A stretch of 64,000 nt of DNA from assembly GCF_013167455.1 (NCBI RefSeq), contig NZ_CP038328.1, one strand, 5' to 3'. This stretch comes from Escherichia coli O157:H7 (lineage in GTDB: Bacteria > Pseudomonadota > Gammaproteobacteria > Enterobacterales > Enterobacteriaceae). Below, piece by piece: positions 1 through 3,000 of the stretch. A program made the position numbers. The number at the start of each line of letters is the position of its first letter. Position 1 is the first letter of the stretch.

Positions 1-3000
1 TTGAAGGCCTGCGCCGTTTGCGCGAAATCCTGCAAACGCAGGGGCTGAATATCGAAGCGCTGTTCCGCGAGTAAGTAAGCATCTGTCAGAAAGGCCAGTC
101 TCAAGCGAGGCTGGCCTTTTTCTTTTGTTTGGGAAGCTTGTGTTTTTGTCGCCTGGATAAGACACGTCAGCGTCCTACCCGGCAATTTGCATCCTATGTG
201 TTCATCATCTTGCGCACCAGCTGCACAAACAGCTCCTGCTCTTCTGCACTCAAACGCCCCAAAAATTCCTCATCCACGCTGTCACCAATCGGTATCGCCG
301 CAGCAAGTATCTTTTCTCCTTCGGCAGTCAGCCAGACAAAGCGACGCCGCTTGTCAGCGGCATCATGTTCACGTCTGACTAAGCCACGATTCTCCATTCT
401 TGCCAACATTTCTGCCAACGTTGCTTTGGTGCTGACTGCTGCTTCTATCAGTGCCACCTGTTCGATACCAGGCTTATCAGCAATGGCGCGCATCACCGCA
501 TACTGTGGTTTGGTCAGGTCAGGTAACTCGTGCTGCCAGCGAGCCGTGTGCTGCTGAAAAAGCTGTCGTAACTGATGGAACGCTTTATTTCGTAACGTCA
601 TGTAAACTCCGGGCAAACTATCTGCCGCTATCATAGCGGTTTTTCAGTGACGAAGGGGATGTTGTTACTTTTCAGTGCTTGCCGCAATGAGAACAGAGGC
701 GTATTTTAATAATAATGTTCGTATACGAACAATTAAGAGAGTAAGCAATGAAACTGATCGTCGGGATGACAGGGGCTACCGGTGCGCCTCTTGGTGTGGC
801 ATTACTGCAAGCGCTGCGGGAGATGCCGAATGTCGAGACTCATCTGGTGATGTCGAAGTGGGCGAAAACCACCATTGAACTGGAAACGCCTTACAGCGCC
901 CGCGATGTTGCTGCCCTCGCTGACTTCAGCCATAACCCGGCGGATCAGGCGGCGACCATCTCCTCAGGTTCCTTTCGTACAGACGGCATGATCGTTATTC
1001 CGTGCAGTATGAAAACGCTCGCCGGTATCCGCGCTGGTTACGCTGATGGCCTGGTAGGGCGCGCGGCGGACGTCGTGCTTAAAGAAGGCCGCAAACTGGT
1101 GCTGGTGCCGCGTGAAATGCCGCTTAGCACCATCCATCTCGAAAATATGCTCGCACTTTCACGCATGGGCGTGGCGATGGTGCCGCCGATGCCTGCCTTT
1201 TATAACCATCCCGAAACGGTAGATGACATTGTCCACCACGTGGTAGCCCGCGTGCTGGATCAATTTGGCCTTGAACATCCCTACGCCAGGCGCTGGCAAG
1301 GATTGCCGCAGGCCCGGAATTTTTCTCAGGAGAATGAATAATGGCATTTGATGATTTACGCAGCTTTTTACAGGCGCTTGATGACCACGGCCAGTTACTG
1401 AAAATCAGCGAAGAGGTGAACGCGGAACCGGATCTGGCTGCCGCTGCCAACGCCACCGGGCGTATCGGCGATGGTGCACCGGCGCTGTGGTTTGATAATA
1501 TTCGCGGTTTTACCGATGCCCGCGTGGCGATGAATACCATCGGTTCCTGGCAGAACCACGCGATTTCCTTGGGCCTGCCGCCAAACACCCCGGTTAAAAA
1601 ACAGATTGATGAGTTTATCCGCCGCTGGGATAACTTCCCGATCGCCCCGGAGCGCCGCGCCAATCCAGCCTGGGCGCAGAACACCGTCGATGGTGACGAG
1701 ATTAATCTGTTCGATATCCTGCCGCTGTTTCGTTTAAACGACGGTGATGGCGGTTTCTATCTCGACAAAGCGTGCGTGGTTTCCCGCGATCCGCTCGACC
1801 CGGATAACTTCGGCAAGCAGAACGTCGGTATCTACCGCATGGAAGTGAAGGGCAAGCGTAAGCTCGGCCTGCAACCGGTGCCGATGCACGATATCGCCCT
1901 GCATCTGCATAAAGCGGAAGAGCGCGGTGAAGATCTGCCGATTGCCATCACCCTGGGTAACGATCCGATCATCACCCTTATGGGCGCCACGCCGCTGAAA
2001 TACGATCAGTCTGAGTATGAAATGGCAGGCGCGCTGCGCGAAAGCCCGTACCCGATCGCCACCGCGCCATTGACTGGTTTTGATGTGCCGTGGGGTTCAG
2101 AAGTGATCCTCGAAGGGGTTATCGAAAGCCGCAAACGCGAAATCGAAGGGCCGTTCGGTGAGTTTACCGGGCACTACTCCGGCGGGCGTAACATGACCGT
2201 GGTGCGTATCGATAAAGTCTCTTACCGCACCAGGCCGATTTTCGAATCGCTGTACCTCGGCATGCCGTGGACCGAAATCGACTACCTGATGGGGCCAGCC
2301 ACCTGTGTGCCGCTGTATCAACAACTGAAAGCCGAGTTCCCGGAAGTGCAGGCGGTAAACGCCATGTACACCCACGGCCTGCTGGCGATTATCTCCACCA
2401 AAAAACGCTACGGCGGCTTTGCCCGCGCGGTGGGCCTGCGTGCGATGACCACGCCGCACGGTCTGGGCTACGTAAAGATGGTGATTATGGTCGATGAAGA
2501 CGTTGACCCGTTCAACCTGCCGCAGGTGATGTGGGCGCTCTCCTCGAAAGTAAATCCGGCAGGGGATTTGGTGCAGTTGCCGAATATGTCCGTGCTGGAA
2601 CTCGACCCTGGCTCAAGCCCGGCGGGGATCACCGACAAGCTGATTATCGACGCCACCACGCCTGTCGCCCCGGACAACCGTGGTCACTACAGCCAGCCGG
2701 TGGTGGATTTGCCGGAAACCAAAGCCTGGGCTGAAAAACTGACCGCTATGCTGGCCGCACGTAAATAAGGAGAACAAGATGATTTGTCCACGTTGTGCCG
2801 ATGAACAGATTGAAGTGATGGCGAAATCGCCGGTGAAAGATGTCTGGACGGTATATCAGTGCCAGCATTGCCTTTATACCTGGCGCGATACCGAACCGCT
2901 GCGCCGTACCAGCCGCGAACATTATCCCGAAGCGTTCCGCATGACGCAGAAAGATATTGATGACGCGCCAATGGTGCCGAGCATCCCGCCGCTGCTGGCG

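What the first reader, a model, noticed from the sequence alone, without database searches (positions are those of the whole stretch)
599..634. Ambiguous start codon of the MarR-like regulator
The longest ORF starts at ATG 632-634 with no Shine-Dalgarno sequence, whereas a second in-frame ATG at 599-601 has a GGAG RBS 5 nt upstream. Using the upstream start would place the 625-639 inverted repeat inside the coding sequence; using the downstream start places it in the 5' leader.
Basis: seen in the sequence. Interest (0 to 1): 0.2.

Follow-up and report, generated by a model that had tools for sequence, protein, structure and literature searches.

The report
HosA regulator start codon resolved
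The regulator gene (hosA of E. coli O157:H7) starts at the second ATG, the one with a ribosome-binding site. The earlier ATG is most likely part of the gene's promoter, so this is an ordinary annotation question that current databases already answer correctly.

Summary
A minus-strand MarR-family ORF (194..634, 146 aa) has a second in-frame ATG at 601-599, preceded by GGAG and 5 nt. A perfect 7+1+7 inverted repeat (625-639) covers the first ATG. The gene is hosA, the known 4-hydroxybenzoate-responsive repressor of the divergent hydroxyarylic acid decarboxylase operon, next to rpoS in E. coli O157:H7.

The real start is ATG 601-599 (135 aa):
- RefSeq, Swiss-Prot and seven PDB entries use it.
- 1268 complete E. 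coli genomes have an in-frame TAG inside the 11-codon extension; 936 keep it open.
- E. albertii, Klebsiella and Kosakonia also break the extension.
- In C. amalonaticus and one metagenomic contig the motif shifts out of frame.
- Anti-SD pairing is -6.1 kcal/mol at the downstream ATG and +0.4 at the upstream one.

The upstream ATG persists because it lies in a TAT[G/C]AT hexamer, found in 13 of 13 orthologous loci 34-36 nt before the start. Outside Escherichia a TTATAA/TTAAAA hexamer sits 17-18 nt upstream of it. This is most likely the hosA -10 promoter element.

The inverted repeat is not the HosA operator (that is GTTCGTATACGAAC, 717-730). It is not rarer than chance, and its right arm is conserved only in Escherichia.

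The finding is ordinary and low in interest.

The parts
194..601 (-). hosA coding sequence, 135 aa plus stop; true start ATG at 601-599
   Evidence: The RefSeq CDS is at these coordinates in the identical O157:H7 genome, and the equivalent 408-nt CDS is annotated in 3 other lineages. PDB HosA (8aga and six more entries) aligns from this Met. Swiss-Prot HOSA_ECO57 is 135 aa. This Met is nearly invariant in the 20-protein orthologue alignment; the only exception is one apparently frameshifted entry.
607..610 (-). Shine-Dalgarno core GGAG, 5 nt before the true start
   Evidence: Read directly. A purine-rich GGAG-like core occupies this position in all 13 orthologous loci (GGAG in 11, GGGG and GAGAG in the others). 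Anti-SD duplex energy is -5.7 to -6.9 kcal/mol across them.
602..634 (-). The 33-nt 'extension' (upstream ATG 634-632 plus 10 codons): not coding. It is promoter and 5' leader sequence.
   Evidence: In-frame TAG in 1268 E. coli genomes against 936 with the open allele. It is closed in E. albertii, Klebsiella and Kosakonia. There is no SD. The only 146-aa record is the original EDL933 annotation AAG57847.1.
630..635 (-). TATGAT, the proposed -10 hexamer of the hosA promoter. It contains the upstream ATG. Predicted transcription start is near 623.
   Evidence: TAT[G/C]AT occurs in 13 of 13 loci at -34 to -36 from the start codon. It is the top sigma-70-like site on the hosA strand in 8 of 8 non-Escherichia taxa, and the scan tool flags it in Salmonella and C. 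amalonaticus at 9/12 matches. This is inferred, with no experimental TSS.
625..639 (.). Perfect inverted repeat CCGCTAT-C-ATAGCGG. Only the core CG[C/T]TAT[G/C]ATAG is conserved beyond Escherichia.
   Evidence: The outer base is already mutated (G to A) in the majority O111-type E. coli allele.
717..730 (.). Experimentally used HosA operator, the 14-bp perfect palindrome GTTCGTATACGAAC
   Evidence: It matches the HosA binding-site probes in PMC6261655 table S1, flanks included. It is nearly invariant across genera and is the only exact copy in the window.
679..707 (+). Predicted promoter of the decarboxylase operon: -35 TTGCCG (679-684), 17-nt spacer, -10 TATTTT (702-707), placing the operator just after the transcription start
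   Evidence: A -35-like TTG hexamer and a TA-initial -10 recur 17 nt apart, with the -10 at -44 to -46 from the subunit B ATG, in most taxa. This agrees with the statement that the HosA site lies downstream of the operon TSS (bioRxiv 10.1101/2024.04.24.590444). Inferred.
748..1341 (+). Divergent gene: non-oxidative hydroxyarylic acid decarboxylase subunit B (UbiX-like flavoprotein)
   Evidence: RefSeq annotation. The same divergent flavoprotein-gene arrangement is seen in all nine orthologous loci outside E. coli whose sequence extends that far.

Best explanation
The gene is hosA. It encodes the MarR-family repressor of the divergently transcribed hydroxyarylic acid decarboxylase operon, and 4-hydroxybenzoate releases it from DNA. 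Translation starts at ATG 601-599 (minus strand), using the GGAG 5 nt upstream, and gives the 135-aa protein.

The upstream ATG (634-632) is not a start codon. It persists because it lies inside a conserved TATGAT hexamer that most likely serves as the -10 element of the hosA promoter. Transcription would then begin near 623, giving a leader of about 22 nt that holds only the SD, and the upstream ATG would not be in the mRNA.

The 7-bp inverted repeat in O157:H7 is an Escherichia-specific extension of the short palindromic core CTAT-N-ATAG. It has no demonstrated role of its own.

Shown: the identity of the start codon, the non-conservation of the extension, and the conservation of the hexamer. 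Inferred: the promoter function and the TSS position.
For: - **Annotation and structures.** RefSeq places the CDS at 194..601 in the identical genome and the equivalent CDS in three divergent lineages. Swiss-Prot HOSA_ECO57 is 135 aa. Seven PDB entries of HosA begin at query residue 12.
- **Extension is not coding.** TTG to TAG at codon 7 in O111 RM9322 and strain 2-1. A diagnostic 34-mer with TAG matches 1268 complete E. coli genomes and the open allele 936. E. albertii has the same TAG, Klebsiella has ATC plus a stop, and Kosakonia has a stop. The frame is open in 5 of 10 sequences, close to the chance value of 0.62 for 10 codons.
- **Translation signal.** Anti-SD pairing is -6.1 kcal/mol at the downstream ATG and +0.4 at the upstream one. 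A GGAG-like SD is present in all 13 loci.
- **Promoter reading.** TAT[G/C]AT is in 13 of 13 loci at -34, -35 or -36, so its spacing to the start codon drifts without respecting the frame. A hexamer TTATAA/TTAAAA lies 17-18 nt upstream in most non-Escherichia taxa. This pair is the best sigma-70-like site on the hosA strand in 8 of 8 of them, and the scan tool reports it in two.
- **Strand.** The hosA-strand hexamer is intact in 13 of 13. The opposite-strand copy degrades to CATCAT in two loci.
Against: No experimental transcription start for hosA was found in the papers I could reach. In Escherichia the -35 position reads CCCCTT or CTTCTT (1-2 of 6 matches), and the TATGAT site is not among the top three sigma-70-like sites there. 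The better-scoring candidate is TTGTTC-18-TAAAAT, with its -10 at 708-703. That promoter would transcribe both ATGs. If it is used, the upstream AUG is in the leader, and the argument against it rests on the missing SD and the stop-codon alleles, which do not apply to O157:H7 itself. A minor 146-aa isoform in lineages with the open allele cannot be excluded by sequence alone.
Confidence: 0.93

Rival explanations
1. The long ORF is real. HosA of O157:H7 is made as a 146-aa protein from ATG 634-632, as in the original EDL933 annotation, with the inverted repeat inside the coding sequence.
For: The frame is open in O157:H7 and in 936 E. coli genomes. An ATG exactly 11 codons upstream with an open frame also occurs in Salmonella, C. 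koseri and C. rodentium. Some records annotate 144-146 aa forms (AAG57847.1; P0009, P0011, P0015).
Against: There is no SD (+0.4 kcal/mol). The majority E. coli allele, E. albertii, Klebsiella and Kosakonia have stop codons or no ATG. The motif is out of frame in two loci. The extension peptides are poorly conserved except where they overlie the hexamer and the SD. The 135-aa protein folds and binds both DNA and 4-HBA (PMC6261655).
Confidence: 0.03
2. The 625-639 inverted repeat is a functional element as a repeat. It could be an operator for HosA or another dimeric regulator overlapping the hosA promoter, or an RNA hairpin in a long leader that sequesters the upstream AUG.
For: It is a perfect 15-bp palindrome in O157:H7, centred on the putative -10, where a repressor would be effective. 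The hairpin is present in the predicted fold of a long leader. A short palindromic core CTAT-N-ATAG is kept in 10 of 13 loci.
Against: Outside Escherichia the right arm diverges (ATAGAAAA, ATAGCAAC, ATAAGAAG) with no compensating change in the left arm. The majority E. coli allele already breaks the outer pair. The frequency of such repeats is within chance. It does not resemble the HosA operator, and no site within 3 mismatches of that operator lies here. The leader fold is not unusual (z = -0.74).
Confidence: 0.1
3. On the + strand, the hairpin plus T-run (624-640 followed by TTTTT) is an intrinsic terminator. It would stop antisense or rpoS read-through transcription before it enters the decarboxylase promoter.
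For: The scan tool lists it as terminator-like on the + strand: 7 pairs, 4 of them G-C, then TTTTTCAG.
Against: The scan found 4 such sites in 900 nt against 1.2 expected, and the criterion is loose. The stem is short with a 3-nt loop. Neither the stem nor the T-run is conserved in other genera. The strong rpoS terminator already lies at 88-121.
Confidence: 0.04

Closest known systems
HosA (Swiss-Prot HOSA_ECO57; PDB 8aga, 8pq4 and others), the MarR/SlyA-family regulator of pathogenic E. coli
   Same: The short form from the window is identical to the sequence named HOSA_ECO57 and about 98% identical to the crystallised EPEC protein over 135 aa. It has the same position next to rpoS, divergent from the decarboxylase BCD operon. 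The same 14-bp operator is present at 717-730.
   Different: Nothing substantive. O157:H7 has Thr instead of Ala at residue 2 and two further substitutions relative to the EPEC protein.
Over-extended N-termini from 'longest ORF' gene calling in early genome annotations
   Same: The only 146-aa record is the original EDL933 deposit (AAG57847.1). Later curated resources moved the start to the SD-preceded ATG.
   Different: Here the spurious upstream ATG is itself conserved across genera, because it lies in a conserved promoter-like hexamer. That could mislead a conservation-based argument.
Sigma-70 promoter -10 elements (consensus TATAAT) with a -35 partner 17 nt upstream
   Same: TATGAT matches 5 of 6 positions, including A2 and T6. 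The distance to the start codon is conserved at 34-36 nt, and a T-T-A-x-A-A hexamer lies 17-18 nt upstream outside Escherichia.
   Different: No TSS has been mapped, and the -35 partner is degenerate in Escherichia.

Membership tests
HosA / MarR-family winged-helix regulator | MarR-type wHTH domain | tested here: met
   The window protein matches nine NCBIfam MarR-family models, including HpaR, OhrR, SlyA and MarR, all below the equivalog cut-offs as expected for a distinct subfamily. Pfam PF01047 and PF12802 are recorded for nearly all listed homologues.
HosA / MarR-family winged-helix regulator | Near-identity to experimentally characterised HosA | tested here: met
   E = 1.3e-83 to PDB 8aga 'Transcriptional regulator HosA', aligned over residues 12-146 of the long ORF against 1-135 of the chain. 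The exact sequence is named HOSA_ECO57.
HosA / MarR-family winged-helix regulator | Divergent from the non-oxidative hydroxyarylic acid decarboxylase operon, with the palindromic operator in the intergenic region | tested here: met
   RefSeq annotation of subunits B and C. The operator at 717-730 matches the published probes. The arrangement is conserved in six genera.
HosA / MarR-family winged-helix regulator | Release from DNA by 4-hydroxybenzoate | not testable with these tools
   Reported for the E. coli UMN026 protein in PMC6261655. Assumed for this near-identical allele.
Sigma-70 promoter (hosA -10 at 635-630) | -10 hexamer close to TATAAT with A2 and T6 | tested here: met
   TATGAT matches 5 of 6 positions. 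TAT[G/C]AT is conserved in 13 of 13 loci.
Sigma-70 promoter (hosA -10 at 635-630) | -35-like hexamer 16-18 nt upstream | tested here: inconclusive
   TTAAAA or TTATAA (3-4 of 6 matches) at 17-18 nt in six of eight non-Escherichia taxa, and weaker TGCTCA/GTGCTA (3 of 6) in Klebsiella. In E. coli and E. albertii it reads CCCCTT or CTTCTT, only 1-2 of 6.
Sigma-70 promoter (hosA -10 at 635-630) | Mapped transcription start 6-8 nt downstream | not testable with these tools
   No TSS data for hosA were found.
Palindromic operator / structured element (625-639) | Both arms conserved, or covarying, in orthologous loci | tested here: not met
   The right arm diverges outside Escherichia with no compensating change. 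The outer pair is broken in the majority E. coli allele.
Intrinsic terminator (+ strand, 624-645) | G+C-rich stem-loop followed by a T-run, conserved, at the end of a transcription unit | tested here: not met
   The pattern is present in O157:H7 only. It is not conserved, and no + strand gene ends there.

The most novel reading that the evidence does not exclude
In Escherichia the ancestral hosA promoter lost its -35 element when the intergenic region shrank by about 24 nt. At the same time the -10 core became embedded in a perfect 15-bp palindrome. That palindrome could be a lineage-specific binding site, for HosA itself or another dimeric regulator, placing hosA transcription under a new control absent from Citrobacter, Salmonella and Klebsiella.
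Probability: 0.08. Interest if true: 0.3.

Novelty: already known. Interest (0 to 1): 0.08.

Why it matters
It matters little beyond annotation hygiene. The 135-aa start is already used by RefSeq, Swiss-Prot and the crystal structures, so nothing needs revising except the legacy EDL933 record.

The one useful lesson is methodological. An upstream in-frame ATG can be conserved across genera for a non-coding reason, here a probable -10 hexamer. Conservation of the codon alone should therefore not be taken as evidence for an N-terminal extension.

The inferred layout of the divergent promoter region may help people who use HosA as a 4-hydroxybenzoate biosensor. On the hosA strand it reads -10 at 635-630, SD, then ATG. 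On the operon strand it reads -35 at 679-684, -10 at 702-707, then the operator at 717-730.

Tried and rejected
- **Experimental TSS or start-codon data.** I looked for these for hosA. The 2005 Infection and Immunity paper on HosA is not held. The two HosA structure preprints and the biosensor paper give the construct and the operator but no hosA TSS.
- **Inverted repeat as the HosA operator.** Rejected. The published site is the 717-730 palindrome, and nothing within 3 mismatches of it lies at 625-639.
- **Repeat as a statistically unusual feature.** Rejected: 9 observed against 5.0 +/- 1.8 expected.
- **Structured 5' leader.** Rejected: z = -0.74 and no covariation.
- **Plus-strand terminator.** Rejected because it is not conserved.
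- **Opposite-strand reading of the hexamer** (TATCAT as a -10 facing the operon). Less likely. That copy degrades to CATCAT in two loci and has no -35 partner, whereas the hosA-strand copy is intact in 13 of 13.
- **NCBIfam profile coordinates to fix the N-terminus.** Uninformative, because MarR-family N-termini vary in length.

Full report
**What is there.** The window matches E. coli O157:H7 at 100% identity.
- The longest ORF is 194..634 (146 aa), with its ATG at 634-632.
- A second in-frame ATG lies 11 codons downstream at 601-599, preceded by GGAG (610-607) and a 5-nt spacer.
- 625-639 is the perfect inverted repeat CCGCTAT-C-ATAGCGG, centred on the upstream ATG.

**Identity of the gene.** The protein is HosA. 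Its residues 12-146 align end to end with PDB 'Transcriptional regulator HosA' (8aga and six other entries, E = 1.3e-83). The 135-aa sequence from the window is the one named HOSA_ECO57 in UniRef. HosA is the 4-hydroxybenzoate-responsive repressor of the adjacent decarboxylase operon (PMC6261655 and bioRxiv 10.1101/2024.04.24.590444).

**Which ATG is used.** Five lines of evidence point to 601-599.
1. *Annotation.* RefSeq annotates a 408-nt CDS, equal to window 194..601, in the identical genome and in three divergent E. coli lineages. The 146-aa form exists only as the original EDL933 record AAG57847.1.
2. *E. coli population.* In O111 RM9322 and strain 2-1, codon 7 of the extension is TAG instead of TTG. 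A 34-nt diagnostic query with TAG matches 1268 complete genomes, and the open allele matches 936, out of about 2400 genomes that carry the locus. More than half of all E. coli hosA genes therefore cannot make the long form.
3. *Other genera.* E. albertii has the same TAG, Klebsiella has ATC instead of ATG plus a stop, and Kosakonia has a stop. In C. amalonaticus and a metagenomic contig the motif sits 2 nt further away, so its ATG is out of frame. The frame is open in 5 of 10 sequences, close to the 0.62 expected by chance for 10 sense codons.
4. *Protein databases.* Of the 120 listed homologues, most are 134-136 aa and cover 91-92% of the long query, which means they align from residue 12. 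The few 144-145 aa Citrobacter entries have extensions that agree only where they overlie the hexamer (MI) and the SD (PG-V).
5. *Ribosome binding.* Pairing to the anti-SD is -6.1 kcal/mol before 601-599 and +0.4 before 634-632. A GGAG-like SD is present in all 13 loci.

**Why the upstream ATG is nevertheless conserved.** I aligned the intergenic regions of E. coli (three lineages), E. albertii, Salmonella, three Citrobacter species, three Klebsiella-type loci, Kosakonia and one metagenomic contig. Three non-coding blocks are conserved:
- the HosA operator;
- the SD;
- cCG[C/T]TAT[G/C]ATAG, which contains the upstream ATG.

TAT[G/C]AT is present in 13 of 13 loci, 34-36 nt before the start codon. 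In most non-Escherichia taxa TTATAA or TTAAAA lies 17-18 nt upstream of it. An unbiased match count over the whole intergenic region ranks this pair as the best sigma-70-like site on the hosA strand in 8 of 8 non-Escherichia taxa. The scan tool reports it independently in Salmonella and C. amalonaticus (TTAAAA-17-TATGAT, 9/12). The hosA-strand hexamer is always intact, while the opposite-strand copy degrades to CATCAT in two loci.

The most economical reading is that TATGAT (window 635-630) is the -10 element of the hosA promoter. Transcription would start near 623, and the leader of about 22 nt would contain only the SD. This is an inference, because I found no mapped TSS.

In Escherichia the intergenic region is about 24 nt shorter and the -35 position is degenerate (CCCCTT or CTTCTT). 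An alternative candidate further upstream (TTGTTC-18-TAAAAT, -10 at 708-703) scores better there. Whether the upstream AUG is transcribed in O157:H7 therefore remains open. If it is, the absent SD still argues against its use.

**The inverted repeat.** It is not the HosA operator. The binding-site probes in PMC6261655 table S1 match window 694-740, flanks included, and centre on GTTCGTATACGAAC at 717-730. That site is nearly invariant across genera, and nothing within 3 mismatches of it lies at 625-639.

Several observations argue against a function for the repeat as such.
- Perfect 7-bp repeats with a 1-nt centre occur 9 times in the window, against 5.0 +/- 1.8 expected.
- The right arm is conserved only in Escherichia, and the majority E. 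coli allele already breaks the outer pair.
- There are no compensatory changes.
- A long leader containing the hairpin folds no better than shuffled sequence (z = -0.74).
- The + strand terminator-like call is not conserved.

I treat the repeat as an incidental, lineage-specific extension of the short palindromic core CTAT-N-ATAG. About a 10% chance remains that it is a real regulatory site in Escherichia.

**Layout of the divergent control region (partly inferred).**
- hosA strand: -10 at 635-630, TSS near 623, SD at 610-607, ATG at 601-599.
- Operon strand: -35 TTGCCG at 679-684, -10 TATTTT at 702-707, HosA operator at 717-730, subunit B ATG at 748.

The operon promoter pair recurs at the same distance from the subunit B start in most taxa. 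It also places the operator just downstream of the TSS, as the literature states.

**Verdict.** The matter is already settled in curated databases. The only addition here is the explanation for the conserved upstream ATG. Novelty: already known. Interest: low.

Noticed in passing
window 717-730: The 14-bp perfect palindrome GTTCGTATACGAAC is the published HosA operator. It is nearly invariant from Escherichia to Kosakonia and is the only exact copy in the 64-kb window.
   Followed up: yes
window 679-707 (+ strand): A conserved -35/-10 pair (TTGCCG, 17 nt, TATTTT) is probably the decarboxylase operon promoter. It recurs with its -10 at -44 to -46 from the subunit B start in most taxa examined.
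   Followed up: partly
window 640-680 versus L005-L009 and L012-L014: The Escherichia hosA/subunit B intergenic region is about 24 nt shorter (149 nt against 170-174). It also lacks the TTATAA/TTAAAA hexamer found 17-18 nt upstream of TATGAT in most of the other genera.
   Followed up: partly
window 1-121: The 3' end of rpoS (stop at 71-73) is followed by a strong 15-bp-stem terminator at 88-121. hosA converges on it from the other strand (stop at 194-196).
   Followed up: no
window 698-703 (hosA strand TACGC; + strand GCGTA): The pentamer TACGC, just outside the operator, is invariant across genera and resembles the TACG of an operator half-site. It may simply be part of the operon -10 region, or it may be an auxiliary HosA contact.
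   Followed up: no
window 1338-1343: The subunit B stop and the subunit C start overlap by one base (TAATG), the usual arrangement for translational coupling.
   Followed up: no
hit H20 (NZ_CP037941.1): About 23 of the 2403 E. coli genomes with the locus match only about half of the 651-nt query. This suggests a truncation or rearrangement within hosA in those strains.
   Followed up: no
protein P0056: A 144-aa database entry keeps the MIAADS extension, but its first ~38 residues do not align with HosA and the rest is HosA. It looks like a frameshifted or mis-assembled hosA and is not evidence for the long form.
   Followed up: no
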